From the human T2T-CHM13v2.0 reference genome, Homo sapiens, in the NCBI RefSeq assembly GCF_009914755.1, contig NC_060925.1: DNA of 64,000 nt; one strand, 5' to 3'. Every line of letters starts with the position of its first letter. Position 1 is the stretch's first letter. A model generated the notes under the pieces. That model saw only the letters and a program-made list of their open reading frames with translations, had not been told where the DNA came from and did no database searches. The position numbers and the translations under genes are program-made. Of the stretch, positions 25,553-60,120 are shown in pieces.

Positions 25553-27045
<1,493 letters not shown>

Positions 27046-33899: not shown

Positions 33900-34127
33900 G
33901 CTAGGCATGCCTGAGAGCAAAGGCCACGCCCCGACACCCCACGGGGCCCTGGCGCGCCAGGCTTCTCAGCCCTGCGGCGGCAGTGCATAGCTCTGGCACG
34001 CGCTGCACCAACTTCCTGTTGGGTGCTGTGGTCCCAAGGCGCGTGCTTTGCAGCAGATGTGTGACCTGGCGTTCCCCTGAGTGCTCGGAAAATGGCCTTG
34101 TCTCCGGTCGTTCCCGTTCAGGAGCAG
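33900..34127 (+). other. KCNAB2: Probable internal KCNAB2 promoter / alternative non-coding first exon
   Basis: Local CpG enrichment at 33860-34160 and donor CAG|GTACCT at 34127/34128 (weak). Consistent with recalled multiple KCNAB2 first exons. Confidence 0.5.
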
Positions 34128-41999: not shown

Positions 42000-42467
42000 C
42001 TCCCCTGGGAGGTGGCAAAGGTGGTGGACTGGGCTGCTGGGACCCTGGGGAGGAATGAAACAGAGCTGTGTTGATGGCCTGCAGTTCCTTGTAATGTGGT
42101 CATCAAACGGTGTACAGTTCCCGTCTGTGGCTGCAGGCTGGAGAGCTGACTGCTGGCACAGATACAGCCTGACCTCGGGTCAACACTTCTCGGAGTCCAG
42201 AGGGGTGGGGAGTGGGACAGGTGGCCTCCCAGGGACGCCTCCCTGAGTGGCCAGTGGTGCCGCTTGTCCCTGCACCTGTAGCTGCCCTGAGCACCCCCAC
42301 TGGACACAGTGGGCATTGCACCCTCCGGAGAAAGCTGCCCTTGTTCCACGTGCGAGCCCTGTCCCCAGCGCCATGGGCTGTGCTACCTGCAGTAACGCAG
42401 ACTGCGAGCCCCGGCTGCCTCTCCAGTGCTCTCTCTCCTCTGGCCTTCAGCAGGCTGGGTCACAGAG
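42000..42467 (+). other. KCNAB2: Possible further alternative non-coding first exon of KCNAB2 (start uncertain)
   Basis: Donor-like GAG|GTATCC at 42467/42468. Support is mostly recall of KCNAB2 transcript structure. Confidence 0.3.
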
Positions 42468-42473
42468 GTATCC

Positions 42474-43870
42474 ATCCACTCATTCATTCACTCAACAAAT
42501 ATCTGTTCCATGTCTACTAGGTGCCAGGCACAGCTGGGAACCAGCAGACAAAACTCCCTGCTTTCCCGGAGCCGGCATCTTGGTGGGCAGACAGCATAAG
42601 CGAGACGAGTAGGTGGAGGAGAAGGCGTGTGAGCAGGTGACAGGCGCTGGGGAGAAACAGCCCAGGGGAGGGACCAGGGAGTGTGGGGGAGACGGGGACT
42701 GCGATGAAAGGGAGGCGTCCAGGGAAGACCTCCATGAGAAGGTGACCTTGGCATAAAGAGGCAAACGTGGGAGCATGCTCAGGCAGACCACGGTGGTCAG
42801 AAGTTGAATTCAGGCCGGAGGAGGAGGAGTGCATGAAGCCCTGAGGTGGGAGTGAGTCTGTCTGCTGGGTTCACAGACCCCCCAGGGAGCCAGTGTGGCA
42901 GGGGCCAGTGTGTGAGGGGCTCAGCGGGGGATGTGGCTAGAAAGGTTGTGGACCCACTGTTGAGATTGGACTTTGGCTCTGAATGGAATGGAAGCCATTG
43001 GAAGGTTTGGAGTGAAGCAGTGACATAATCTGACTTATGTTCTGGGAGGATCACCCTGGCCGCGTAGAGTCTGCCGGCGGGGGTGGAGGTGGGCGCAGGG
43101 AATGCTGTGAGGAGCAGCATGAGAGCCGGTGGCAGCTGGGCAGGAGAGGAGACAGGGAGAGGCACGGGGCCCCTGGCCCAGGGATGGATTGGATGTGGGA
43201 GGCGGGACGTGGGAGGAAGGGAGGAGTCGGGGTGACTCCCGGGAGTGGGACTGACACCTGGGAGGGTGGGGAGCTCGTTACTCATCTGGGGCCACCCTGG
43301 GAAGAACTGGGCTGGGGGTGAGGGCAGTCGGGAGCTCAGTGTCTGACCCAGGAATCCGAGGCACACGTTCCCCACCCTCATAGCTGAGCCACACAGGCAG
43401 GAAATAAACAGCTCTGGGGTTCAGGGGAGTGGTAGAGGGGGTGGGGTCTGCAGCATGGGGACGGGGTTCAGAGCCACGAGATGGGTGGAAATCTGAGGGG
43501 CTTTGTGGGGATGGAAAAGAATATATTCAAGAGCTGAGCAAGGGCAGCCACTGGAGGACAGCGATGAGCAGGAAGAAGCCCAGGAGACTGAGAAGGAGTG
43601 GCTGGAGGGATGAGAGGGGAGCGTGGAGTCCTGGGAGCTGGGGAAGCCGCAGGCAGCACCTCTGTCACCCCGATACGATGGGCACCGCTGGACCTAGCAA
43701 CGAAGAGGTCACCGCAACCTTGGCAAGTGCAGTTTCCACGGAGTGGTGAGGGCAGAGGCTGATTGGAGTTGGTTTATAAGCCGGAAGAAGAAGAGGAATC
43801 GCAGATAAGTGAAGGAAAACTTTTTGAGGAATTTTCTCAAATGGAAGGCGAGAAACAGTGGAGAAGAAAG
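42474..43870 (-). mobile_element. L2 LINE remnant
   Basis: CATTCATTCACTCAACAAATAT...GTGCCAGGCAC L2 3'-end signature, followed by purine-rich L2-like body. Confidence 0.7.
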
Positions 43871-45954: not shown

Positions 45955-46265
<311 letters not shown>

Positions 46266-47189
46266 GGCTGGTCCCATTTTACCAGCAGGTCTACACATGT
46301 GCTCACATCGCTCACTCAGAGGAGACCTCCGTTATTAGGGGGACCTAGACCTGTGCTGCCTTGACCCCAGGGACAGAGGTTGTTTGGGAATCCCCTCCCT
46401 TACTTTGATTTCTTCCGAGGAAGCCGGCTTCCTGGTGACGGGAGGTCACTGTTCTGGGGAAAAAGAGTGGGAAAAACAAAGCCAATCAGCCACTTGGCTA
46501 AGTGTCAGGTTTCCCAACAACTTCATGGGTTGCTGTGGATGGGCGGGGCTGTTTTGAGCCCAGACCATCCCTTTGCCTGTGGGTGTGGGACCACGTGATT
46601 TTGGATCAGGGGTCATTTGTCCTTCCAGAAGCCAAGCCCTGTTCCAGGCATGGGGGTGCAGCAGTGAGTGAGACCCACAGAACCACTGCCCTCCTGGAAC
46701 ACACCCCCCCCAGAGAGGGAACTGGGGCACCACAGACCCGTGTGCAGGCAGCAAGGGCGTGGTGTCGGCCGGGGAGCAGCAGGGACCCCTGAGCCCCACA
46801 GTCGGGGCTCATGGCGCTGAGAAGCACTGCAGCAAGGGCGCAGCCAGTAGGAGAGGAGCCGCAAGCGCAAGCATCCGCAGACAGTGTGAGCTCAGCGTGC
46901 TGGGAAGGCGGGGGCCTGGGTCAAGGGCCAGGCGGCAGAGCATAGGGGCCTGGGGGGGCAGTGCCTAGGAGTGGGAGGAAAGAGCATGGGACCAGATTCA
47001 CTTTGGAAATAGAAGCCCCCAACCAGCAGCCAGCCAGGTGGAGGAAGGCGTGCAGAGCTGAGAGGGTTCAGGAGGCGGTGGGGGGAGCCACTGGGAGGGG
47101 ACCCAGGGGTTCAGGTGAAAGACAGCAGTGGCTCAGCCCAAGGGTGGCAGCCAGAGATGTGGGTGGACGGCTGGATATTGGCAGCCATA

Positions 47190-47705
47190 CTCATTATCAA
47201 TGCTGCTGTAACAGCTCATCACAAACCCTGCAGCTTCCAACTGCCCAGAGTGAGATCTCCTGGTTCTTGTGGGTCAGGCATTGGGGCAGAGCAGGGCTGG
47301 GTCTGCTGTTTTGGGACCCCTGAGCTGCAGTCGAGGTTCTTGCCGGGACTGGGCTCACCTTGGAAACCTCTGGTAGGAAAGGATCCACTTCCAGGCTCCC
47401 TCGTTCGTTTGAAGGACTCCTTTCTTTGGGCTGTTGGGCTGAGGGCTCAGCTTCTCGCCAGCTGTCGGCCCGAGGCTGCCCTCAGTTCCTGCCCCAAGGG
47501 CCTCTCCAACACCACAGCTTGCTTCATCAGAGCCAGGAGGGACAGTCTCTAGCAAGACAGAAGTGACAGTCTTGCCATTACCTTTGCCGTGTTCTGCTGG
47601 TTAGAAGCGACTTGCTAGGTGCAGCCCACACTCCAGGACAGGGGCTGCCCAAGGGCAGGAATCCCAGGAGCTGCGGACATCAGTGGCATCTGAGAAGCTG
47701 CCTGA
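47190..47705 (-). mobile_element. Old MLT1-type LTR
   Basis: TGCTGCTGTAACA...GGGTCAGG...TTCTGCTGGTTAGAAGC pattern typical of reverse-strand MLT1. Confidence 0.6.
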
Positions 47706-48242
47706 CTTAGGAGCTCAATGGCAGCACCAGGAAGCTGCACTGGGCTGGAGTCAGGGCAAGGGACAGTGTCAGCGATGACCCTGGGGGACAGCAGTGCAGT
47801 CAGGAGCTCAGAAAGTACACAGATGCCCCCTGGGCGGTCTCTTCTGCACCATGTGGGCAGCAGAAACTACACCTACGGTTTCAGAACAACAGTTGGGGTG
47901 GTGTGGAAGGACCTCCACGACATATAGGGTGGGAGTGTGGAGTGATGGAGTGTGGAAACCCTTCTCACAGTTGTCACCTGCTCTCCAGCCCCTCCTGAGC
48001 CCGTGGACCTGCCTGCCTGCCGTGTGTCTGTCTGTCGTCTGTCTGTCTGTCTCTCTGCTGAGGGGCTCCCCGATGCCCTGAACCCAGACAGCCTCCTCAG
48101 CCTTTGTGATCCCAGAGTCTCCCGGCCAAACCTGGTTGATCTTTTTTAACCACCACCCTCTTCCCCTCCCTTATTTTGCTTTTCTTCCAGAATTTTCCCA
48201 CTGTAAAAAACCGAGCAAGTCTGGATAAGTGAGGCTGGCTCC

Positions 48243-48319
48243 ATGTATCCAGAATCAACGACGGGCTCCCCGGCTCGGCTCTCGCTGCGGCAGACGGGCT
48301 CCCCCGGGATGATCTACAG
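48243..48319 (+). CDS. KCNAB2: KCNAB2 first coding exon, canonical N-terminus [25 protein letters not shown] (exon 48191-48319 including 52 nt of 5'UTR)
   Basis: Polypyrimidine tract and TTCCAG acceptor at 48190; in-frame upstream TAA at 48204; donor CAG|GTGACC; translation equals the known Kvbeta2 N-terminus. Confidence 0.97.
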
Positions 48320-49298
48320 GTGACCCCCTGCCCCCTCACCCAGGCCCCCTCCCAGGGTCAGTCCTGCTTCGAGGACGGGTTCCCAAGGCCACTGTCCTCC
48401 CCTCTGGAGGTGGAAGGGCCCAAGCAGGGCCCACAGGCTTCTGCCTTCCACGGGGTTTTGAGGTGCACGCTGGTGAGCGTTTTCTCCAAGAAAGGAGCAG
48501 GGGCTTTAAAAACCCAAGTGGGAAAGAAAAACCAAAACTTTTCCAGGGCGTTTGAGCCAGAGTAGACTCCTTTCTTGTCCCTGACCCTTCCGAAATATCT
48601 CGTTTGAGGTTAACAGAGCGGCCGGACAGTGAGTGCACGGCCAACCCCGGCATCCTGTTCCTCCCACTTTATACATCGCAGCCCCTGTGGCCCTGCCAGT
48701 TTCTCCTGAGCGAGGATGACGACCTTGCAGGCCTTTGGGGAACCACGTCTGCCGGTTTCCCAACACTGGAGGGAGTGGGGGCGGCCAAATGCTCCTGGGG
48801 CATCCTGACCCCCTCCTTGTGGAACTCACTTCCGCTTGCAGCCCTGGGTGTTTCTGTCTGCACCATAAACAGCGCTGAACATCAGCGACAGCTGCGGAGG
48901 GCGTTCAGTGAGAGCTGAGCCTCTGGGGACAGAGCATAGAACCCACGAAAGACGCAGGCACAGGCAGTACCCCAGCAGCCCATCAGTCTTGGGAAGCCAG
49001 ACCTTTCCGGATAATCACTGGGGCCTGAGCCAGAGCCCGTGTCTGTGACAGCCACAGGGAAAGGCAGTGTCTGTCCTAAGAAGAGCCAGGCGGGCAGGTG
49101 CGGGTTTGCCAGCACGCGGGTGCTCTGCACGTCTGGGTTGGAGGGTTTTCAGCCATTGCCCACAAGCATATTGCAAAGCAAGTCCTGAAGCACATTCAAT
49201 CCAAACCAACCCTCACTCGGAGGTTCACCACGGAAAACAGGGCCTGGCATGGAAGGAGCCCTTGGTGTCCAGGAAACTGGCTCCGGGTCTCTGCCCCG

Positions 49299-49317
49299 TG
49301 GCCACCGGGTGGCGCTG
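49299..49317 (+). promoter_or_regulatory. CTCF-like motif TGGCCACCGGGTGGCGCTG
   Basis: Matches TGGCCACCAG(G/A)(G/T)GGCGCT with one core mismatch (A>G). Confidence 0.55.
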
Positions 49318-49504
49318 CTGCAGAGCACTTGGCACCGGCTGCGCTTCCTCAGAGACTGCCCTGAGCAGGCGACTGGTGGGGGCCTGGGGGCATGGGACAT
49401 TGGTGGTTCTTTCTGACCTGCACCTGCTGGGGTTGATGCCAACTGTGGACTCTCTCTCTTCTCTCCCTTTCTCCTTTTTCTCTTTTCTCCATTGCTGTCC
49501 GAAG

Positions 49505-49546
49505 TACTCGGTATGGGAGTCCCAAAAGACAGCTCCAGTTTTACAG
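49505..49546 (+). CDS. KCNAB2: KCNAB2 42-nt cassette exon, (S)TRYGSPKRQLQFY(R)
   Basis: Long pyrimidine tract, AG at 49503-49504, donor CAG|GTAATG. Frame-preserving (phase 2-2); matches the 14-aa segment that distinguishes the known Kvbeta2 splice forms. Confidence 0.96.
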
Positions 49547-51479
49547 GTAATGAGTCTTCATTCTCCCTAAAACCCAGCGAGCCGAAGGCCAGGGAGCGGG
49601 TGGGAGGACTGCACCCTTGCCGAGCAGGGTGTGCTGGTGTATTCTCTGAAGCCAAAGCCCCCGAGACCCCCAGGCTCTGCTCATCACCCTCTGTGCCTAC
49701 CCACAGGATGCTGTGCAATGTCCTGATGGAAAATGTGAAGTCAGGTTAATTGTATGTGTTGGTCTGCCAGAAGTTTGCTTTGATTTGAGCAAATGGGCTT
49801 TTGATGACTGCCAAGCTCTCAGCCAAATCTACCGTTAAAGCTTCACTCATCAGGCAGTGAGGGAGATGTCTTCCTGTGGTCACCAGCTTGCCCTGCTTCC
49901 ATTATCAGAGTACAGGACGTGGCGAGCCCATCCGTTCCCCCTTTGCCTGTGGGTTTGACCTGATCTGGAACTCACAGAGCTCCTCAGGCTCATTGAAGGT
50001 TAATGCCTGCTTGGGGGTGTGCAGTACTGATACGACGTGGATCAGTGACATCTTTCTGATATGTTTTTCTGTTGGTGAATTAACAAACCGGGCACCTGGC
50101 GAGAGACTGTGCCCCAGCAGGATGTGACATCAAGATGCCAGGCTTAGGGCCCTGCAGGGTGCTCTTGGGGAGACCCGTTCCTCTCTCTGGGCTGCCTCTC
50201 CCTCACCTGTAAGGCAGGGGATGCATGTTCTTGGTGCAGCCTCCAACCCTAGGAAGTAAAATGTCAGGGCTGCCTGGAGCCCATGGGCAGCAGCCTCCCC
50301 ATGCCTTGGGACTGTTTGGGGAATTGGCACGGCTTCTGGCAGCAGGTCCCTGGTATGCATTGCTGCATCTTGGCGGTCAGGCCGGGAGGTCTCTCTATTC
50401 GGACCCGGACATCTGGTAACAGTGCTTTGGGGATCGTTGCCAATGTGCCAGGCAGTGGTCATGGAGGTGGCAATGTATTTCCATGTAGCTTTTCTCTCCC
50501 CGCGCCCCCACTCCCCACCCCCCCCCCCCCCCGTTTGCCAGCCATAGCACCTCTGATGGGGACCGTGGACCTAGATGCTCAGAGTGATCTGTGCCACGCC
50601 TTCAGTGCCTCCTCGGAGGTCCTGCTCCTTACAGGGAGCTCTGAAGACATGGCCAACTCTTAGATCCTACTGAAATTTTGGTAGATAAGATTTTGCTTAA
50701 GATAGTTAAATCTGAACTCCGGCTTGCAAATGCTTTCCCTGGATGAAATGTTTGTATTGTGATGTATGTACACATGGTATAACAGATCCTAACAAACATA
50801 TGCCGCTCATCCCAGGGGATTTCATCAGTGAAACAAAACATGTACCTGAACTGCATCCTCAGAGAGCCGGGAGCAGCCTCAGTCCTCAGAAGGGAAGGGG
50901 TGAGGTCTGATGAGCAGGCAGGAAAATCCCAGGTGCAGACCTGCCAGCTCAAAAGGGCTGCCCACAGGTACAGACCATCCAGCTCCAAGGGCCTGCCCCT
51001 AGGAGGGGCCAAGTAAATTATCCAGTGACCAAGTGAGAGCCTTCCAGCCCACTCAAGGCCCTCAAAACCCCACAGGCTCAACATGTTGTCCCCCCCGCCG
51101 GGATCCCTGTGCTTAAGAACCTTCATTTCCAGGTGGCCTTCCTGGCCCCAAGGGAAGCTCTGAAGCTTACCCTCTAGGCTCTCAGCCCCAATTCTGGTGC
51201 CCACAGGCTCTGGCCATCCTACCCGTTGGATCTCCAGGGGTTCACTTGGGTGTCTCTTGTGGGGGCTCTGGAGATGACCTCTAAGGGCTAGGGTCTTTGT
51301 TTGTTAACAGGCTGGGGGCCACTCCTAGTAGGGCACCCTCATCACACCAAGCATACCACTAAACATGGCTATTGGATGGTTCTTTCAGTTACTTAGGCCT
51401 GGCCCTCTCACAGGGCAGAGGCGTTCAAGGCATGTGCCCTGCCCCCATGCAGCTCCCAGGCAAGGAATTGGCATAGGAC

Positions 51480-51930
51480 ACTGTGCCAATCAGCTGTCCA
51501 CCAAGTGCTGCATAACAAACAACTCCAAAACTCAGTGCCACGCAGCAATCAGCATCTCTTCCTTGCTCCCGTGTCTGCGGGTTGACCAGGCAGCTCGTCT
51601 AAGCTGGCTTGGCTGGGTTTGTCTCCAAGCTGCAAGTTGGATCCCCATGTCCTCCATCTTCCCATGCTTAACTGGGGCCTACCCCAGGCATGTCCTTCCC
51701 ATGGCAAAAGTACCAGAGGAAAAGCAGAAACATGCAGGGTCTCTTACGGCCTATGGTTGGGGTCAGAGCGCTGTCACCTCTGCTCACGTGCTTTTGGCCA
51801 AAGTAAGTCTCAGGAACCAGCCCACAGTCAAGGGGCTGGAAATATATTGCCCCCACCAGTGGGAGGAGCTATAAAGTCACATGGCAAAGGGCATGGGTAC
51901 AGAGAGGGGTGAAGGATTGGGAGCAATACT
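51480..51930 (-). mobile_element. Old MLT1-type LTR
   Basis: TGCTGCATAACAAACAACTCCAAAACTCAGTG...TTGGCCAAAGTAAGTC pattern. Confidence 0.6.
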
Positions 51931-53559
51931 TCCATGTACCCCAGGTCTCAAATAGCCCTGATGATCTCCAGAAGGCAGAGCACGTCACAGGAGAAGCCCA
52001 AAGAGCATTTGGGGTCCAAGGAAGGAGGGGCCACAGCCAGCTGAGAGCCAAGAAGACTTCACGGAGAAGGCAGCAGGGGCTTGGATCTGGTCCTTGAAGG
52101 CTGGGCAGGATTCAACGCAGAGGCTGGGAAGCATATTCCAGTAGATACAACAGCCTGAGCCACAGCTCAGAGGTGTGCACAGAGAACAGGAAGTGACAGT
52201 TACCCAGCCTGGGCCATCAGGGACATGATGGAGAATAAAGAGAGGCTGGCTGTAGAGGTGGATGTTGGTGGGGGGCCTCGAATGCCTAGCGATGGGGCAC
52301 AGATGCACTCAGAGGGCACTGGGGAGCCATCTATGGTGTTTGAGCAGGGCAGGGGTCAGAGATCTGCTCTAGGAAGGAAGCCTGGTAGCAGGGAGTAAGA
52401 CAGGGAAGAGAGAGGCTAATGCAAGGAGACCAGACAGTGCCCAGGAAAGGTGCAGGACGGCTGAGCTCCAGGAACTGCACAGAGAGAGAATGAAGGGGTG
52501 CAGGGCCTGAAAAAAGGACGTCAGAAGCCACGTCCACAGGGCTTGGCCACTGATGGGCAGGTGCTGAGACAGAAAGGGACAGAGAGGAGCAGTGGACCCA
52601 GGGAAGGAGAGGGCCTCATTCGGAGCATGTTAGGCTGCAGCTACCACCCAGTAGTGAGGCGCAGGCCCCCCGACCAGGGCGACATGTGGGGATCTGACAG
52701 AGTGGGCTTGGGCCTTTGGGGACAAACCATTTCAATTGCCAAGGCCTTCGCAGCTAGTCACCCGCAGCCAGGCACCTCCAGACTCTACGTGCTCTCCCAG
52801 CCTCCCACTTCATTTACCTTCCACACTGCGACTGGGGCACTGATTTCCTGTCCCCCACCTTCCCCCATGGCAGCTACCACTGTTTGCTCATTCATCATGG
52901 GGGGACGGTTCTGCCTCCATTCAAAATCCCACATTCACTGGCGCGCTTTCTCAGCCGGAAGATGATGTCACGCTGGGACTTTGCTGGCATCCTGTGACAC
53001 GCAGTGACCCTGGGGGTCATGACCCTGGGGTTGGGGCTCAGCACTTAGCCTCATCCCAGAGCTCAGCCTTGTTTGGCCTAGTCTCAAAGCATTTCCCAAA
53101 CCCCAGGTCAGGACATGTGCCGTGGAGAAGGGCTCCTGTGTCCCTGCCTGGAGTGAGTGGCAGTGTGGAGTCCAAATAGCAGGTTCTGGGGCCTTCCTGC
53201 CATTTATAGCTACCGGTAGTATCAGATATACCCATCTCGGGTGTATCCCCAGAGGACAGGAGGAGCATGCGCGTGTGCTGAGCAGAGGCCTCTCCAGACC
53301 CCCTTGGCTGTGGGTGGTGGCCCCATACGACGGGGCCCCCAGCTCCCCTGCTGCAGACACAGTTCAGAGTTGAGTGGTATGCGGAAGCCACAGGCTCTGT
53401 GTCCCGCACTCAGATACCAAAGAGCAAGGCCTGCCCCTTTCGACCTGTGGGTCCAAAGGTTTGTGTTTCTGGCACGCGGGGATGGTGGAGGCAGCAAGGG
53501 TAGGCCTGAGGGACGGGCAGGACCTCCCCCTCACCTTGGGCTGCACCCCAACCCCACGC

Positions 53560-53861
53560 ACCGGGAGTCAGCCTTGCCAGGTTGCAGCACGGAACTGCAC
53601 TTCCCGAGCTTTTAGGGGAAGAGGCACTCGTGAATAATTCAGCCTCTTTCACTGAGATGAAAACGCCCTAATAGAACTAATGGACTCGCTGCCTCAAAAC
53701 TCGACTCTGGTGGGACTCATCTCATTCACCAATTGCTTCTGACGTCCTGCAGTGACACTCCCTAATGAAAAAGCCGCTGTGCCAGATCCTTAGAGTGTCT
53801 GGTGATCCCTAATAAACCAGACTGTGGCCTTTTTAACGAGCAGACGCCCCCACGAAGGCAG
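53560..53861 (+). other. KCNAB2: KCNAB2 downstream alternative first exon (non-coding leader of the long-N-terminus isoform; TSS approximate)
   Basis: Consensus donor CAG|GTGAGT at 53861/53862, modest CpG enrichment, non-repetitive. Lies between the canonical N-terminal exons and the ATG-containing exon at 59189, which needs its own leader. Confidence 0.7.
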
Positions 53862-55179
53862 GTGAGTCCTCCCTTCAGCCGCTACCTTCCTAGTGGAGAT
53901 GCCGCTTGGGGGCACGCATCCGCGGGAATGAAAAATAACAGAGGAGACCATATTTTGGGGTGGTTTTGTCTGATCCGGAATTAGACCCTCCGTGTTTTTG
54001 CAAAGCAGAAGACCTTAAAAAAGAGCCAGCCTGAGGTAAACTTGGAATGACCGTGATGGATGGGGTGGTGGGCGGCAGGTTTCAGCCGGGCAGCACCTCT
54101 CGCTTGAGTCTGCTCACAGCCCAGACCTGCCCAAGGCTGACTGTTTTCCCATCTGCCGGAGACACGGGCGTCTAGCTCGTACCTCGCTGTGTTCACCATT
54201 GATTAAGATTCAGCATTTTCCAGTTTTGCCCAGAGCGCTGTCAGGGAGGTTTGGTCTTGTCTGAAATGTCTGTGCAGGAAGCACGTGCTGAGGGAGCCAG
54301 GGGCTGCTTGTTTGGGCCTCAGTTTGCTGATTGTCCTTGAGCGAAAATCATTCTGTGTTTGCACTGAAGCAATGCCGTGTCTTGTAGAGCCGCACCCCGG
54401 AATGGTAGCAGCTCCCCTTCCATTTCCGCTTTGGAGAACTCTGGCTGGGCTCTCTGCTCTCTGGACAGGTGTCACCATTCAGAAGAGATGCTCAGGGTTC
54501 CTTCTCAATCTCAGGTTGTATGCTTTGTTGGCTTTCAGTAAACAGAACAATTCAGAAATTCCAGGTAGAGGAGTCTGGGGTGAGGTAGTGATTCCTACTG
54601 ACTTAATGAGGTTAACATCTTCCTTGCATTTTTCCATGTCACGGTGTTAATTCACGTGAATTCCCCTGGGCCCCTGATCTACAGGAATAGATTTGCACCA
54701 GGCAGGCCCAGCCCAGGAAAGAACTTGTGGGTTCCACGTAATTAGCAATGGCTATTGAGGAGGGGCTCGTTTTTCTTGGTACCAGGGTGGTGAGGGAGTG
54801 TCAGGGCTCAGAGACCCTCACTCTGGAAAGCGGCCGGGATTTGGGATATTTTGAATTGGAAGTCAGGGGTCACTGTGCTCTTGAGCACAGGAGAAGTGGG
54901 GACCCTGAGGCAGGAGCCCGGCAGTGGGGCCACTCTCTCCTCCCTGCAGTGTCTTACCGGGGGGCCCTTCGTCCAAGGACCTGACGCTGCTAGAGTCTCG
55001 GCAAAAGCCCAGAATAGAGCCCCAGTGTGAGGGAGTCCAGAGGTGTCCTCTGTCCCCAGGCACCGCTGGTAACGGGCAGAGCCTCTTTGCCTTCTGCCTG
55101 TACCTATCCTTCTTCCCCTGGGGCAGCCCTCCCAGAGTCATGAGCCTTCAGGACCACAGGGAGCCCCCGCTGTACAGAG

Positions 55180-55462
55180 TCCTGGCATGGGAGTCCCCCC
55201 CACACAAGAGAGGGTGACCTGCAAAGAGCTGCTGGGTCTGAGGTAGGAAGCCAGCCCCGCCCCCACCAACAGCTGCCTGGCACTGCCAGGAAATGCCCAG
55301 GTATAGCCCTGGTTGGCCTTTTGGAGCCTGGGCCTTGGTTACTGTTCTACAAATATCTGAGCCCCTCCTCTGTGCACGGGACACTCCCGTGGGCACTGGT
55401 CAGGGGGCAGTGGCAGCAGGCAGAAGAGTCCTTGCCCTCCTGGACCCAACCTTCAGGGGAGT
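55180..55462. repeat. Copy 1 of ~285-bp dispersed direct duplication
   Basis: Aligns with 56758-57045. Confidence 0.93.
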
Positions 55463-56757
55463 CCAGCGGCCATGGGCTCCTCATGGCACCAGCCCTGCTC
55501 CTCACCCCACCACCCCATGCCAAAGGCTGCCATTTCTGTGCCCGCAAGTTCCCTGGCCCAAGCCCTGCCCTGGCACCATGGGGACAAGCTCGTAGCAAGA
55601 GGCTCTGGGCTCCCTCCGTGCCGCAGGGCTCCCACCTGCAGGTCTGCTCCCAGGGCTGCAACATGAGCTCTAAGGAAAGATTGCAAGCGGGCCCCCACAG
55701 GGAGGGACGCCCTCTAAATCCTGGCCACAAAACCCATTCTGTCCTGCCCTCTCTCCCCTCTCCCACTCACATCCCCAAACTCGGCCTTCCACCATCTTGT
55801 TGTGAAGGGGGCGATTATTCACATCTGTGTTCTCTTCCCTTAAGCATTTTCTAGGGAGATTTGGTGTCTGTGTGGCTCACTCCTCTCACTCAAACCTGTG
55901 GTCACAAGTTCCTTCCCGCCCTGCCTGCTGGCCCCTGGTGGTGGATTTTTCTTTCCACAGCATTTATCATAATTGGTGTCTTATCCCACGCCCCCCAACA
56001 GACTGTCTTCTGGCTGCGTCACCAACTCCCACCCAGTTGTCCAAAGCCTCATCTCATGCAGCCCACAGCAGCCTGGTACAACAGGCCTCTGCCCAGCCTA
56101 CCTCACAGATGTGGAGGCTGAGGCCGGGAGCGGTCAAGGTGCCTGCCTGGGCCACACCATGAGCAGGTGACAAGCAGAGCTGCCCCTGTCCAGAAGCTGG
56201 GCACTCAGCCACCCCGTCCTCCAGCCCCGGGGCCTTGGCTATATTTCTAGAGCCAAACCAGACCCGGATTGCTTTTTGTGAGTAATGTCTTGAAAGCTAA
56301 TGGCTATTGATCTCAGCCTGGTCGGGCCAGGCAGGGAACTTGCGTGTCTGAGGCTGGTCCTGCCTTTCAGAAAGAGCCCTGGGGCTACAGCCTGCCCAGC
56401 TGGCCTTCTTTCTAAACACAGACCTCAGGGAAGTGAGGGTTGGCCCCCATTTGCCCCACACCGGACTGGCAGCTAGCCACATGGCCACCTCAGAAGCAGC
56501 TGCCTGCCACGCGCATGGAGGGAAGGGAGTGGCCGGCCAGTAGGCAGGGAAGGGAAGCTGGTGCTGCTGTCTGTGGGTGCCAAGGGCCTCATTTCCTAAG
56601 GTGAACCTCTCCTGGAGTCCGGGCCTCTCTGCCCTCCAGAGCGATTCTCCTGGAAGGCAGACGGCTTTCCATGCCAGGGTACCCGCCTGCTTTAGCGTCC
56701 AGAGGTCCAGCAGCCACCACCCCTCCCAGCATAGAAATGAGCAGTGGTGAATGCAAC

Positions 56758-57045
56758 TCCTGGCATGGGAACCCCCCAGCAAGAGAGGACGACCTGCAAA
56801 GAGCCACTGGGCCTGAGGCAGGAAGCCAGCCCCGCCCCCACCAACAGCTGCCTGGCACTGCCAGGAAATGCCCAGGTATAGCCCTGGTTGGCCTTTTGGA
56901 GCCTGGGCCTTGGTTGCTGTTCTACAAGTATCTGAGTCCCTCCTCTGTACACGAGGGGCACTCCCATGGGCACTGAGCAGGGGGCAGTGGCAGTGGCAGG
57001 AGGCAGAAGGGTCCCTGCCCTCCTGGACTCAACCTTCAGGGGAGT
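56758..57045. repeat. Copy 2 of ~285-bp dispersed direct duplication
   Basis: Aligns with 55180-55462; 56820-56915 is identical to 55245-55340. Confidence 0.93.
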
Positions 57046-59214
57046 GAATTCAGCACACAGGACAGCTAGAAAGGAATCAGCAAGGTGGATGATGGCGAGC
57101 GCCATGGAGACAGATCACAGCAGGAAAGAGGCACATGGTGTGGTTTGTGTGGGACAGAGGGTAGGATGGGAAACGCAGCCCCCCCACCCCCGGGAGCCAT
57201 GCCCATCAGACAGAGGTGCAGAGGTGCAGACAGCACAGCAGGCTCCCCAAGGACGACTGGTTGCTCGCCTTTAGGGAGGGGGCCATCCAGCCCTGACCAG
57301 GGTGGTGGGGCCAAGGCCTGTGTGGACACTGCTACCCAGCTCCCTGTAGGGGCTCCTCGGGGGCTCCTTGCCTGCTGGTCTCTCTTTAGCTCTTCTCTGA
57401 GCCCACCTTCCCTACCTCAATTGCATGTTCATGCAACAGGCATTTGTAGGCTCTGCTCTGAGCTAGGCCTCATGCTGGGCACAACAGGGCAGACATGAAT
57501 GAAGGTCCCTGCAAATAAGATACAGACGAATACTTGCAGGGAAACCCCCATGAAAGAGGCAGCTGTGGGGCTCCTGGAGGTGGCCCCCCTCTCTGGGTGC
57601 ACATATAGGCAGAGCAGTGAAAGGTCAGCAGGCTGGTCACCCATTCTGGAAGGACCCCAGCACATGGGGCTCATCACAAACTCCTGCCCCTTGTGGGTCT
57701 TTCCTTTGGCCCCTGGAGCTCACCCCAGGAAAGGCCCAGCCTGGGGCAACTCCAGGACATCTCAACCCCCTTCAAGGACCGTGCTAAAGCCTCTGTAGCT
57801 GCCTCAGCTCCCAGGATAGCCCTCCCAGCTCCTTCCCAGGGATAATCGAACTTTTCCTCTCTTGGGGCAGAAGGTGGGGACAGTGCTGGTTCCTTTCCAG
57901 CTCCCAGGCCAGGTTCCAGGATCCCACTGTGCAGCTGACCCAGCTGAAATGGTGACTTCCCCTCTGCACCTTCTCTCTCTGGTGATGATGCAGAGCTGCA
58001 GTGCAGGCCACCTGGGCCATGGCCGAGGCTGCAGTCAGGTGGGGTGAGGGTCACTGGACTGGGGACCTCCTTTGTGTTGAGCCTGCCTCCATGTCCTCAT
58101 TGCGCTGTCACAGACTCTGCAGGGTGAGGACTCAGCCCCGAGGCTGCCCTCACTGGTCCACTCACTGTTGTGCACATGAATTAACACCAGTGGTTGCGTT
58201 CTGGACACACGCTTTCTCCCTTGGCCTTTTAATTGTCCACTATCTCTCAGGGCTCACTCACTCACTATGTTGAGATGCCTCATTCTTGACAGCAGCACAA
58301 ATTCCCACTATGTGGATGGACTGTCACTTAGGTAACCAGTTTCCCTACTGATGGACATTTACATTGCTTTTAGTTTCCAAGAATGTGCATTCATCATTTC
58401 AGCTATATTTCAGTGGTTCTTCACATAGAAACTTTGAAACTCCCCTGTCCCAACTAAGCCTATTTCCCCAGGCCACTCTCCTCCGCAACCTGCTTAAATG
58501 CATTCTGCTCAGTTTTTCTTTTGCAAAAAGCATGAAGCCCAAAGATCTCTGCGGTGCAATGATGCGTTCAACAAGCAGGGAATGTGTTGTATAGATAGCA
58601 TTTCCCTTTACAAGGCTAAGAGCAAATAGGACCTTCCCATGTTGGGGCCACCTGGCATGCGGGGGTGAGGTGCCTCCCTGGCATAATTACAGGAGAGTTT
58701 ACTTCAGCAACAGGTGTGCCCTGCGCTGCTTTCCCAGGGACAGCTTTTGACCCAGTTTTACCCTGGGAACCACCTCAAGAGACCACCATGACATGGTACC
58801 GCAGTCACCACGGAACAGCAACCCTGGTCTTCAGCATTTGGGGGGCTCAGGCTCTGCATGCTCTCTGTGCTCCCGTTTTCATTTGGACACTTGGGGTGCA
58901 GCTGTCCTGCCTGGAATGCAGCTTTGCCTGTGCTTGTCTCACAGATGCAGGGGACAGAAAAGGGCAGCTTAGCCAGAGTTCCTGGCAAGCACTGCTTTGC
59001 GGACTGAGAATCTCATGCCAAGAGGTGTTTACATCCAGGGGCCGGGTCCCACTCCTAGACACCAAGACCTGGTGGTGGCACTAGTTAAAGGATGTTTCGC
59101 TGCAGCTGCCCCCTGCCCCAGGGCCAGCCATCCAGCCTGGGGCACGTGGGGCATTGGCACACTGTCTAACTCATCACCGTCTGGACAGTGGCAGCTCCCA
59201 AGCCAGGCGGCACC

Positions 59215-59432
59215 ATGCTGTCCATGACGTACAGCGAGAGTCTGCGGAGCGTGAGCAGCAGGTGCCACTCTGAATGGGCCCTGCACCCCGTCCGCCAGAC
59301 GGACACGCTGGAACTGCAGCGGCTGCGGGAGGTGCGGGCGGCTGCCCAGGCCAGGAACATGGAGAGCTTCCTCCGCATGCACGGCCTTTCCCTGGACGGC
59401 TGCACCGCCCAGCGCACAGGCATGAAGTATCG
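59215..59432 (+). CDS. KCNAB2: KCNAB2 alternative first coding exon, 72-aa N-terminus MLSMTYSESLRS...CTAQRTGMKY(R) (exon 59189-59432)
   Basis: Branch point CTAAC 59166-59170, acceptor CAG at 59188, good Kozak GGCACCATGC, CpG-rich coding-like composition, donor CG|GTAAGG in phase 2. TGMKYR is the Kvbeta motif that precedes NLGKSGLRVS. Confidence 0.93.
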
Positions 59433-59477
59433 GTAAGGGCCGGGCAGGGGGGCGGTGGGGTGGGAAGTCTGATTTCA

Positions 59478-60120
<643 letters not shown>

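What the first reader, a model, noticed from the sequence alone, without database searches (positions are those of the whole stretch)
59189..59432. Kvbeta2 alternative N-terminus looks like a paralog of the Kvbeta1.1/Kvbeta3 inactivation-ball exon
Seen: a spliced exon with a good Kozak ATG encoding 72 aa ending TGMKY(R), phase 2. Known: Kvbeta1.1 and Kvbeta3 confer N-type inactivation through an N-terminal ball peptide, and Kvbeta2 is normally described as lacking one. Against Kvbeta1.1 as I recall it (MQVSIACTEHNLKS...IARSLGTFTPQHHISLKESTAKQTGMKYR), this exon has nearly the same length. It aligns without gaps over its C-terminal third (QARNMESFLRMHGLSLDGCTAQRTGMKYR: AR, F, H, SL, TA and TGMKYR shared) and loosely at the tip (MLSMTYSESLRS), with Tyr at the position of the redox-sensitive Cys7. 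Inference: KCNAB2 kept an ancestral ball exon under its own promoter, so promoter choice could switch Kvbeta2 between non-inactivating and inactivating (possibly redox-insensitive) forms. The isoform is probably annotated; its function is the open question.
Basis: partly seen in the sequence, partly recalled or inferred. Interest (0 to 1): 0.85.

Follow-up and report, generated by a model that had tools for sequence, protein, structure and literature searches.

The report
Conserved long N-terminus of Kvβ2
This exon starts a little-studied long form of the potassium-channel helper protein Kvβ2; it is conserved from newts to humans and part of it is related to the inactivation arm of the sister protein Kvβ1, so it may let Kvβ2 shut channels.

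Summary
The exon is real and annotated. It is exon 2 of NM_001199862.2 (tagged 'select', 415 aa) and XM_054339293.1 (400 aa). Its CDS is 59215-59432, 72 codons plus 2 nt. It lies behind a non-coding first exon at 53566-53861.

The peptide is kept open and 68-99% identical to human in 9 other tetrapods, from newt to marmoset. Hedgehog and ibis gene models join it to the Kvβ2 aldo-keto-reductase core.

Its last 32-43 residues are homologous to the KCNAB1 N-terminal exons:
- Kvβ1.2-type: hhalign probability 96.7%, E 3.7e-10.
- Kvβ1.1-type: 94.5%, E 7.4e-8, ungapped and in register.
- The signal survives removal of TGMKYR.

The first 30 residues resemble no known ball (20 of 20 tests p>0.09). Even so, residues 1-16 are among the best-kept parts.

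Two chain arginines that couple Kvβ1.1 inactivation to the core have counterparts here, R36 and R47.

No functional paper was found. Reviews say Kvβ2 lacks a ball. Inactivation is plausible but untested.

The parts
53566..53861 (+). Non-coding first exon (alternative transcription start) of the three transcripts that begin here; two of them carry the exon under study
   Evidence: NM_001199862.2, XM_054339293.1 and NM_001199863.2 all start at 53566. GC 0.51, CpG o/e 0.59 (not a CpG island); the GTGAGT donor follows base 53861; the 322-nt 5' leader holds three short upstream ORFs of 4, 20 and 15 codons; no masked repeat overlaps.
59189..59432 (+). The exon of the finding (26 nt leader plus 218 nt coding)
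   Evidence: AG acceptor at 59187-59188, GTAAGG donor from 59433. No overlap with masked repeats; the nearest, 59478-60030, reads as an Alu.
59215..59262 (+). Codons 1-16: conserved N-terminal tip (MLSMTYSESLRSVSSR), the candidate 'ball' or regulatory peptide
   Evidence: identity to human is 94-100% in 4 mammals, 94% in ibis, 75-88% in 3 squamates and 62% in newt. Mean pairwise identity among human plus 5 non-mammals is 0.76; no significant similarity to any Kvβ ball. AlphaFold2 pLDDT below 50 for residues 1-6 (disordered or uncertain).
59263..59304 (+). Codons 17-30: variable spacer
   Evidence: 1 of 14 columns invariant; ibis is 29% identical to human here; mean pairwise identity 0.50.
59305..59382 (+). 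Codons 31-56: predicted long helix, homologous to the 'chain' of Kvβ1.1 and, from residue 42 on, to Kvβ1.2
   Evidence: helix 28-55 with pLDDT 88-90; hhalign 31-72 against Kvβ1.1 32-73; fixed register 31-55 gives p 5.5e-4; 13 of 26 columns invariant.
59383..59432 (+). Codons 57-72 plus 2 nt of codon 73: linker (GLSL..CTA..TGMKYR) to the core; phase-2 junction to the common exon that starts NLGKSG
   Evidence: 11 of 17 columns invariant; shared with Kvβ1.1, β1.2 and β3; the spliced protein reads ...TGMKYRNLGKSG.
48243..48319 (+). Canonical Kvβ2 start exon (mutually exclusive alternative), followed by the 14-codon exon 49505-49546
   Evidence: the 367- and 353-aa isoforms; no significant similarity to the exon under study (p 0.28-0.83).

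Best explanation
SHOWN:
- The exon encodes the first 72 residues, plus two bases of codon 73, of an annotated long isoform of Kvβ2.
- It replaces the short canonical N-terminus and is read from an alternative start site 5.6 kb upstream.
- It has been kept as an open, spliceable coding exon across tetrapods.
- Its last 32-43 residues (helix plus linker) descend from the same ancestral N-terminal exon as the Kvβ1.1- and Kvβ1.2-type exons of KCNAB1.
- Its first 16 residues are a separately conserved sequence with no detectable relative.

INFERRED:
- It works as a Kvβ1-style tethered N-terminal arm. The core docks under the Kv1 channel. The roughly 55-residue spacer, helix and linker have the same length as the Kvβ1.1 chain (73 against 74 residues). 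They present the conserved tip to the channel, where it blocks or modulates the open pore (N-type inactivation, possibly partial or limited to some Kv1 subunits).
- The basic residues R36 and R47 sit at the positions of Kvβ1.1 R37 and R48, and the core keeps the acidic partners. The arm could therefore be restrained by the cofactor state of the core, as in Kvβ1.1.
- The invariant Ser-rich LRS.xS[RK] stretch suggests control by phosphorylation.

My odds: a conserved functional arm homologous to the Kvβ1 chain, about 0.9. That it produces measurable inactivation of some Kv1 channel, about 0.4.
For: Anatomy and annotation.

Conservation:
- Orthologous peptides were found in hamster, skink, gecko, newt, cobra, marmoset, tree shrew, hedgehog and ibis.
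- 38 of 73 columns are invariant among 8 species.
- Mean pairwise identity by segment: tip 0.76, spacer 0.50, helix 0.72, linker 0.79.
- The only length change is one codon in newt.

Link to the Kvβ2 core:
- Hedgehog P0009 carries Pfam PF00248 (E 2.7e-47).
- Its core is identical to the human Kvβ2 core at 227 of 228 aligned residues.
- Ibis P0011 also joins the exon to the core.

Homology:
- The best non-self hit of the peptide in the whole human genome is the KCNAB1 Kvβ1.2-type exon (E 0.43 genome-wide).
- Pairwise Smith-Waterman gives 82 (z 14.4). Without the last 6 residues it gives 57 (z 8.6, p<=0.0005).
- hhalign: 96.7% for β1.2 and 94.5% for β1.1.

Mechanistic hints:
- Passages of PMC4614385 report that the Kvβ1.1 chain F40-I59 binds Ca2+/calmodulin through R37, R41, R48, F40 and F53. 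They also report that R37 and R48 dock on core E265 and E349 after NADPH oxidation.
- On the register, 3 of these 5 residues (R37, R48, F53) are R36, R47 and F52 here. Position 36 is R or K and position 47 is R or K in 10 of 10 species.
- Residues 264 and 348 of the 400-aa isoform are both Glu.
- Tip hydropathy and charge (mean Kyte-Doolittle 0.35; charge -1 in residues 1-10 and 0 in 1-20) match Kvβ1.1 (0.32; -1; 0) and Kvβ3 (0.29; -1; 0). They do not match the canonical Kvβ2 tip (-0.95).
- Kvβ1.1, β1.2, β1.3 and β3.1 have dissimilar tips yet all induce N-type inactivation (passages).
Against: - No electrophysiology exists for this isoform in anything I could search.
- The tip has no significant similarity to any known ball: 20 of 20 tests p>0.09. 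Against the Kv3.4 ball, p ranges from 0.06 to 0.99.
- Two of the five Kvβ1.1 chain residues (F40, R41) are E39 and V40 here.
- The helix is not amphipathic by hydrophobic moment: 0.18 against 1.03 for the Kvβ1.1 segment. Calmodulin binding is therefore doubtful.
- Net charge of residues 1-20 is 0. That is no better than Kvβ1.1 and much lower than Kv3.4 (+4).
- Reviews and primary papers state that Kvβ2 lacks an inactivation peptide (passages). They consider only Kvβ2.1 and Kvβ2.2.
- No expression or protein-level evidence was accessible; supplements are closed.
- No fish or shark sequence was seen. The length window of the protein search (at most 322 aa) excluded full-length isoforms, so the exon's age beyond tetrapods is unknown.
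- I did not see the KCNAB1 counterpart of E265, because that piece of the gene was not fetched.
Confidence: 0.5

Rival explanations
1. The long N-terminus is functional but does not block the pore. It would be a regulatory or targeting arm, for example a phospho-regulated binding site for a cytoskeletal or scaffold partner, or an arm that folds back on the reductase core and tunes cofactor binding or channel trafficking.
For: - The conservation of tip and helix shows function but not which function.
- The tip matches no known ball.
- The Ser-rich basic motif is invariant.
- PMC9317154 says N-terminal serine phosphorylation of Kvβ proteins matters for cytoskeletal interaction and trafficking.
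- R36 and R47, with E264 and E348, would allow arm-to-core docking.
Against: - The arm has the same length, register and homologous chain as in Kvβ1.1.
- The tip hydropathy and charge match Kvβ1.1 and β3.
- All four characterised long Kvβ N-termini induce N-type inactivation (passages).
Confidence: 0.35
2. One reading: the exon is the KCNAB2 copy of the Kvβ1.1/Kvβ3 ball exon. The tip would be a diverged but homologous ball, with Tyr replacing the redox-sensing Cys7.
For: - It is the N-terminal exon nearest to the common core exon, as the Kvβ1.1-type exon is in KCNAB1. The order there is β1.3, β1.2, β1.1, then the core.
- The lengths are nearly identical: 73 against 74 residues, and 74 in newt.
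- The homology is ungapped and in register over residues 31-73.
- Gecko and newt read VVE where Kvβ1.1 reads VVN.
Against: - The tip similarity is at chance level. The fixed-register score for newt against Kvβ1.1 gives p 0.39-0.72 for residues 2-14, 2-20 and 2-30.
- Kvβ1.2 scores higher than Kvβ1.1 in 10 of 10 species.
- Kvβ3 shares only 14 residues.
Confidence: 0.1
3. The isoform is transcriptional noise or an annotation curiosity with no function of its own. The similarity to Kvβ1 would be only the splice-junction motif TGMKYR.
For: - No published function was found.
- The promoter exon is not a CpG island, and the leader carries three upstream ORFs.
- The same start site also gives an exon-skipping transcript.
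Against: - The reading frame is open and 68-99% identical to human in 9 other tetrapods.
- Human and hamster differ at 1 of 73 residues.
- The similarity to Kvβ1.2 and β1.1 survives removal of TGMKYR.
- RefSeq marks the transcript 'select'.
Confidence: 0.03
4. The Ser/Arg-rich start (MLS...) is an organelle-targeting presequence, for example mitochondrial, that sends a Kvβ2 reductase away from the channel.
For: Composition only: 8 Ser or Thr in the first 20 residues, two Arg, and a weakly predicted helix 7-20.
Against: - Net charge of residues 1-20 is 0, with Glu8 and Glu/Asp20. From general knowledge, presequences are net positive and poor in acidic residues.
- No targeting predictor was available, so this was not tested.
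Confidence: 0.02

Closest known systems
Kvβ1.2-type N-terminal exon of KCNAB1 (chr3:158917815-158918057; L005:5815-6057)
   Same: - Alternative coding exon spliced in phase 2 onto the common exon that starts NLGKSG.
- The last 32 residues are 50% identical (hhalign probability 96.7%, E 3.7e-10).
- It is the best non-self hit in the whole genome.
- It scores higher than Kvβ1.1 in 10 of 10 species.
- Kvβ1.2 induces N-type inactivation (passages).
   Different: - It is 81 residues long against 73.
- The first 40-50 residues are unrelated.
- Kvβ1.2 has the His2...Cys8 and 28CxxH31 motifs, which this exon lacks. Here Cys17-His18 occurs only in mammals and the skink.
Kvβ1.1-type exon of KCNAB1 (L033:143-363) and exon 1 of KCNAB3 (L027:8121-8363, minus strand)
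   Same: - Same phase and nearly the same length: 74 against 73 residues.
- Ungapped homology in register over residues 31-73.
- Nearest position to the core exon.
- Chain residues R37, R48 and F53 have counterparts R36, R47 and F52.
   Different: - The MQVSIAC ball with Cys7 and His10 has no counterpart.
- F40 and R41 are not kept.
- The helix is not amphipathic.
- KCNAB3 shares only the last 14 residues.
Canonical Kvβ2.1 and Kvβ2.2 N-termini (48243-48319, with or without 49505-49546)
   Same: Same gene and same core. The junction to the common exon is likewise in phase 2, and the ending is similar (…GMIY against …GMKY).
   Different: - 39 or 25 residues instead of 72.
- Hydrophilic tip: mean Kyte-Doolittle -0.95 against 0.35.
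- No significant similarity (p 0.28-0.83).
- Described as lacking an inactivation peptide.
Kvβ1.3-type exon of KCNAB1 (L004:3238-3513; label by elimination and recall)
   Same: Same exon class and phase. It has a weak, gapped resemblance (LREV...TGM..R; Smith-Waterman 41, p 0.009).
   Different: hhalign probability is only 17.7%. Nothing remains once the last 6 residues are removed (p 0.59).

Membership tests
Kvβ alternative N-terminal exon class (KCNAB1 β1.1/β1.2/β1.3, KCNAB3 exon 1) | A coding exon with its own ATG, spliced in phase 2 onto the common exon beginning NLGKSG and ending T-G-M-x-[YH]-R | tested here: met
   72 codons plus 2 nt...TGMKY|R, joined to NLGKSGLRVS. The same pattern was found for the three KCNAB1 exons and for KCNAB3 exon 1.
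Kvβ alternative N-terminal exon class (KCNAB1 β1.1/β1.2/β1.3, KCNAB3 exon 1) | Sequence homology of the chain and linker beyond the junction motif | tested here: met
   met for β1.2 (p<=0.0005 without the last 6 residues) and for β1.1 (p 0.0135; fixed register p 5e-5). Not met for β1.3 and β3 (p 0.59 and 0.25).
Kvβ (AKR6) subunit, Kvβ2 orthologue | The N-terminal exon is attached to an aldo-keto-reductase core identical to Kvβ2 | tested here: met
   PF00248, E 2.7e-47 in hedgehog P0009; 227 of 228 core residues are identical to human Kvβ2; the human transcripts.
Kvβ1.1/Kvβ3 inactivation ball (MQVSIAC type) | Sequence similarity of the first ~20-30 residues | tested here: not met
   against β1.1, p 0.34-0.87 in 5 of 5 species; against β3, p 0.09-0.46.
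Kvβ1.1/Kvβ3 inactivation ball (MQVSIAC type) | Redox- and heme-sensing Cys7 (7CxxH10) | tested here: not met
   positions 6-7 are Tyr-Ser in 10 of 10 species. Cys17 is present only in 5 mammals and the skink.
N-type ('ball-and-chain') inactivation particles in general | Confers fast inactivation on a non-inactivating Kv1 channel; the effect is lost on N-terminal deletion and restored by free peptide | not testable with these tools
   This needs electrophysiology. No report was found.
N-type ('ball-and-chain') inactivation particles in general | An uncharged or hydrophobic extreme N-terminus followed by basic residues on a flexible tether | tested here: inconclusive
   the first 7 residues are uncharged, and hydropathy and charge equal those of Kvβ1.1 and β3, but net charge of residues 1-20 is 0; the tip is of low confidence or disordered, followed by a long helix.
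Kvβ1.1-type chain regulated by NADPH state and Ca2+/calmodulin | Chain residues R37, R41, R48, F40 and F53, with core E265 and E349 | tested here: inconclusive
   3 of 5 chain residues are kept (R36, R47, F52) and both core Glu are present. However, F40 and R41 are lost and the hydrophobic moment is 0.18 against 1.03.

The most novel reading that the evidence does not exclude
KCNAB2 is the β-subunit gene that the field treats as ball-less. Through an alternative start site, it encodes a further class of Kvβ inactivation particle. This would be a tetrapod-conserved, Ser-rich, probably phosphorylation-gated tip of new sequence. It sits on a chain inherited from the common ancestor of the Kvβ1.1 and β1.2 exons, and the chain still carries the two arginines that couple the arm to the redox state of the reductase core. 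Choice of start site in KCNAB2 would then switch Kv1 channels between sustained and A-type behaviour.
Probability: 0.3. Interest if true: 0.8.

Novelty: new member of a known kind. Interest (0 to 1): 0.6.

Why it matters
From recall, Kvβ2 is the most abundant Kv1 helper subunit in brain.

- **What the field assumes.** Reviews and primary papers I read in passages state that β2 variants lack the inactivation peptide. They list only Kvβ2.1 and Kvβ2.2.
- **What the annotation says.** The transcript RefSeq tags 'select' carries a 72-residue N-terminus. That N-terminus is conserved from amphibians to humans and is homologous to the Kvβ1 chain.
- **If the arm blocks or tunes Kv1 pores.** Part of the variation in native A-type currents could come from KCNAB2 start-site choice. 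So could some of the KCNAB2 knockout and deletion phenotypes. Expression constructs that use only the 367-aa form would miss this.
- **Clinical naming.** One paper already names a KCNAB2 variant on this transcript. Variants in this exon will therefore be reported without any functional knowledge.
- **Testability.** One round of co-expression recordings would settle the question.

Tried and rejected
1. **Tip against known balls.** Smith-Waterman with shuffles for residues 2-30 of five species against Kvβ1.1, β3, β1.2 and β1.3 gave p>0.09 in 20 of 20 tests.
2. **Kv3.4 ball.** This was a lead recalled from memory. I checked it on KCNC4 codons 1-40 cut from the genome. Fixed register gave p 0.06 and local alignment gave p 0.25-0.99, so I rejected it.
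3. **Pfam.** There were 0 families for the exon peptide and for the β1.2, β1.3 and β3 exon peptides. The β1.1 peptide gave one sub-threshold chance hit (12.6 bits against a cut-off of 29.6).
4. **Atlas look-alikes.** The best score was 0.80, which is chance level by the tool's own calibration.
5. **Literature.**
   - Peptide strings: 0 papers.
   - Accession-like terms, typed from recall: 0 papers.
   - NM_001199862: 1 paper, which names a core variant outside this exon.
   - 'KCNAB2' with 'alternative promoter': 7 papers, 6 listed. I read passages of two. The L2a-driven promoter concerns the canonical protein isoform. The mouse long-read paper names Kcnab2 only in a list.
   - The skate preprint found only the 353- and 367-aa forms (section 11 read).
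   - (606 papers, 15 listed) gave nothing on this isoform.
   - PMC3078402 is not held. What I say about it comes from passages of PMC4614385.
6. **Exon derived from a repeat.** No masked repeat of 100 bases or more overlaps any KCNAB2 exon in the window.
7. **Calmodulin-type amphipathic helix.** The hydrophobic moment is 0.18 against 1.03 in Kvβ1.1, so this is not supported.
8. **Deciding β1.1 against β1.2 as the true counterpart.** Identical columns tie at 5 and 5. There are too few characters for a tree, so I left it open.
9. **Fish and sharks.** These were out of reach. The three protein searches could see proteins of at most 154, 227 and 322 aa. They also left out 26, 15 and 13 candidates of unnamed source. 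A blank here says nothing.
10. **A faulty script.** One search had the Kvβ1.1 exon one base out of frame and lacked the last residue of the query. Its numbers are discarded, and one search replaces it.
11. **First hand-in.** This call repeats the same report with the field in place.

**Rows dropped.**
- P0005 was left out of A1 and out. It has the same exon peptide as P0003 with one extra leading Met.
- P0010 was left out. It is a chimeric mole-rat model that joins canonical exons to residues 7-73.
- A1 therefore used 8 of the 9 exon peptides then in hand (human plus 8 stored proteins). One search used 10 of 12.

**Supplements.** They are closed. Isoform tables of PMC8415367 and PMC13589356, and proteomics tables anywhere, may bear on expression.


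Full report
**What is there**

Window 59189-59432 is an exon bounded by an AG acceptor (59187-59188) and a GTAAGG donor. An ATG at 59215 has A at -3 and C at +4. It opens 72 codons plus two bases, ending ...TGMKY with a split Arg codon.

RefSeq places it as exon 2 of NM_001199862.2 (tagged 'select', 415 aa) and of XM_054339293.1 (400 aa). In both it follows a non-coding first exon at 53566-53861 and is spliced to the common exon that reads NLGKSGLRVS. So it is not a first exon. Its start site lies 5.6 kb upstream, downstream of the canonical coding exons 48243-48319 and 49505-49546. A third transcript from the same start (NM_001199863.2) skips the exon and encodes a 300-aa N-truncated protein.

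The start exon is not a CpG island. The 322-nt leader has three short upstream ORFs. No masked repeat overlaps the exon. An Alu-like repeat begins 46 bases after it.

**Is it a real coding exon?**

Three word-based protein searches each saw only short proteins: at most 154, 227 and 322 aa. They left out 26, 15 and 13 candidates of unnamed source.

- The first search returned 4 of 4 scored candidates.
- The second and third each returned 8 of 8 scored candidates.
- Every hit was a copy of this peptide.

The species are Chinese hamster, marmoset, tree shrew, hedgehog, Damaraland mole-rat, crested ibis, a gecko (two records), a skink, king cobra and a newt.

Among 8 species, 38 of 73 columns are invariant, and identity to human runs from 68% to 99%. 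The only length change is one extra codon in newt.

Hedgehog P0009 and ibis P0011 are gene models that join the peptide to an aldo-keto-reductase core (PF00248, E 2.7e-47). The hedgehog core matches the human Kvβ2 core at 227 of 228 aligned residues. The ibis model is partly mis-modelled and matches at 218 of 243.

An open frame kept for the time since amphibians and amniotes split (about 350 million years, recalled) shows coding constraint.

Conservation is uneven (10 species). The figure is mean pairwise identity among human and five non-mammals.

| Segment | Residues | Mean pairwise identity |
|---|---|---|
| Tip | 1-16 | 0.76 |
| Spacer | 17-30 | 0.50 |
| Helix | 31-56 | 0.72 |
| Linker | 57-73 | 0.79 |

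In ibis the spacer is 29% identical to human while the tip is 94% identical.

**What is it related to?**

A six-frame search of the whole human genome with the peptide gave three matches. One was the exon itself. One was a KCNAB1 exon at chr3:158917896 (E 0.43, weak at genome scale). One was a chance-level hit on chr8.

The KCNAB1 exon begins MHLYKPAC and ends TGMAYR. It carries His2, Cys8 and 28CxxH31, which PMC7239824 gives for Kvβ1.2 (passages).

I then located the other N-terminal exons:

- a second KCNAB1 exon (L004), which I call β1.3-type by elimination and recall;
- KCNAB3 exon 1 (L027);
- the Kvβ1.1-type exon (L033), found through the KCNAB3 exon. Its Cys7, His10, R37, F40, R41, R48 and F53 match the numbering in PMC4614385 and PMC7239824.

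Smith-Waterman scores with 2000 shuffles:

| Compared with | Full peptides | Last 6 residues removed from both |
|---|---|---|
| β1.2 | 82 (z 14.4) | 57 (z 8.6, p<=0.0005) |
| β1.1 | 70 (z 10.9) | 37 (p 0.0135) |
| β3 | 37 | 21 (p 0.25) |
| β1.3 | 41 | 23 (p 0.59) |
| Canonical Kvβ2 N-terminus | 17-20 (p 0.28-0.83) | 17 (p 0.46-0.62) |

Profile comparisons of the 8-species alignment against each exon:

| Exon | hhalign probability | Columns aligned |
|---|---|---|
| β1.2 | 96.7% (E 3.7e-10) | 32 |
| β1.1 | 94.5% (E 7.4e-8) | 42, ungapped, residues 31-72 on 32-73 |
| β3 | 72.3% | 14 |
| β1.3 | 17.7% | 44 |

In a fixed register, newt against Kvβ1.1 gives p 5e-5 for residues 31-68 and p 5.5e-4 for residues 31-55.

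By score, however, β1.2 is closer in 10 of 10 species. By identical columns over the last 43 residues the two tie: 11 shared with both, 5 with β1.1 only, and 5 with β1.2 only.

Position in the gene and length favour β1.1. This exon is the one nearest to the core, and it is 73 residues against 74. I leave the one-to-one assignment open.

**The tip**

Residues 2-30 from five species were compared with the tips of β1.1, β3, β1.2 and β1.3. All 20 comparisons gave p>0.09. A recalled resemblance to the Kv3.4 ball did not hold either (p 0.06-0.99).

Lack of similarity is weak evidence against function, because the four characterised Kvβ tips differ from one another yet all induce N-type inactivation (passages).

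In bulk properties the tip matches Kvβ1.1 and β3 and differs from the canonical Kvβ2 start:

| N-terminus | Mean Kyte-Doolittle, residues 1-10 | Charge, 1-10 | Charge, 1-20 |
|---|---|---|---|
| This exon | 0.35 | -1 | 0 |
| Kvβ1.1 | 0.32 | -1 | 0 |
| Kvβ3 | 0.29 | -1 | 0 |
| Canonical Kvβ2 | -0.95 | -1 | +1 |

The stretch YS.S[LM]RS..S[RK] is almost invariant and holds basophilic-kinase-type serines (my inference).

**Shape**

AlphaFold2 on the 8-species alignment gives a confident helix at residues 28-55 (pLDDT 88-90). It also gives a short helix at 60-68 and a low-confidence tip. Mean pLDDT is 72.9.

**A link to mechanism**

Passages of PMC4614385 say three things about Kvβ1.1:

- The ball extends to residue 34.
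- The chain F40-I59 binds Ca2+/calmodulin through R37, R41, R48, F40 and F53.
- Citing Pan et al. 2011, R37 and R48 dock onto core E265 and E349 when NADPH is oxidised, which restrains the ball.

On the hhalign register:

- R37, R48 and F53 correspond to R36, R47 and F52 here.
- Positions 36 and 47 are Arg or Lys in 10 of 10 species, and F52 is invariant.
- F40 and R41 correspond to E39 and V40.
- Residues 264 and 348 of the 400-aa isoform are both Glu. I did not see the KCNAB1 counterpart of E265.
- The helix is not amphipathic: moment 0.18 against 1.03.

Cofactor-linked docking is therefore plausible and calmodulin binding is doubtful.

**What is known**

- A 2026 review lists Kvβ1.1-1.3, Kvβ2.1-2.2 and Kvβ3.1 (passages).
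- PMC7239824 says Kvβ2.1 lacks the inactivation peptide (passages).
- Searches for the exon's peptides, for accession-like terms and for the transcript number found no study of this isoform.
- One paper uses NM_001199862.2 to name a missense change in the core. Residue 294 of the 415-aa protein is Leu, as the paper states.

The searchable library lacks most subscription journals, and supplements are closed. 'Not in print' therefore means not found in those searches.

**Verdict**

KCNAB2 has kept an exon of the Kvβ1 N-terminal class, homologous in chain and linker and conserved in tetrapods. It is read from its own start site. Its tip is a new sequence, and its nearest relative by score is the β1.2-type exon rather than β1.1/β3.

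I rate a conserved functional arm at about 0.9. I rate measurable N-type inactivation at about 0.4. A non-blocking regulatory or targeting arm is the main rival.

The isoform is annotated, but its function is open and easy to test.

Noticed in passing
L031:4946-4990 (chr1:5616946-5616990; outside the window, window-style numbering 98946-98990): The 'select' transcript NM_001199862.2 alone carries an extra 45-nt exon. It inserts 15 residues (GDPFSSSKSRTFIIE) into the reductase core just after ...NTPME, a few residues past the FANR motif. XM_054339293.1 has the same N-terminus without it (400 aa). The hedgehog model has no such insert. The ibis model is mis-modelled at that place.
   Followed up: partly
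window 53566-53861 joined to 80435 (outside the window): NM_001199863.2 uses the same start exon but skips the exon of the finding. Its CDS then starts far downstream and gives a 300-aa protein without the N-terminus and the first core exons. Inclusion of the exon is therefore a splicing choice as well as a promoter choice.
   Followed up: no
window 46263-59477: No masked repeat of 100 bases or more lies in these roughly 13 kb. The stretch holds the canonical coding exons, the alternative start exon and the exon of the finding, and it ends at an Alu-like repeat at 59478-60030. It may reflect regulatory constraint.
   Followed up: no
G000 chr3:158895238-159196271 (L004, L005, L033, L019): The order of the KCNAB1 N-terminal exons along the gene is β1.3-type, then β1.2-type (about 22.6 kb on), then β1.1-type (about 149 kb on), then the common exon (about 130 kb further on). 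Only half of this interval was fetched.
   Followed up: partly
P0006 (king cobra), P0010 (mole-rat), P0003 and P0005 (gecko): - The cobra fragment is labelled 'subunit beta-1, partial', although it is a copy of this Kvβ2 exon.
- The mole-rat model fuses the canonical Kvβ2 start exons to residues 7-73 of this exon, which is probably a prediction artefact.
- The gecko has two records with the same exon peptide, both flagged UNVERIFIED_CONTAM.
   Followed up: no
window 59263-59286 (codons 17-24): Mammals and the skink have Cys17-His18. His18 and Trp21 are kept in 9 of 10 species, and His24 in 7 of 10. Kvβ1.2 has a heme-regulatory 28CxxH31 with a Trp in its chain. I did not test whether this cluster binds heme or senses redox, and the resemblance is not significant in alignment.
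   Followed up: partly
window, KCNAB2 upstream first exons (502-614, 26285-26485, 34015-34127, 42361-42467, 42706-42845): A paper reports a neuronal, postnatal L2a-driven KCNAB2 promoter that gives the canonical protein (PMC8415367, passages). None of the annotated exons in the window overlaps a masked repeat of 100 bases or more, so I could not place that start site.
   Followed up: partly
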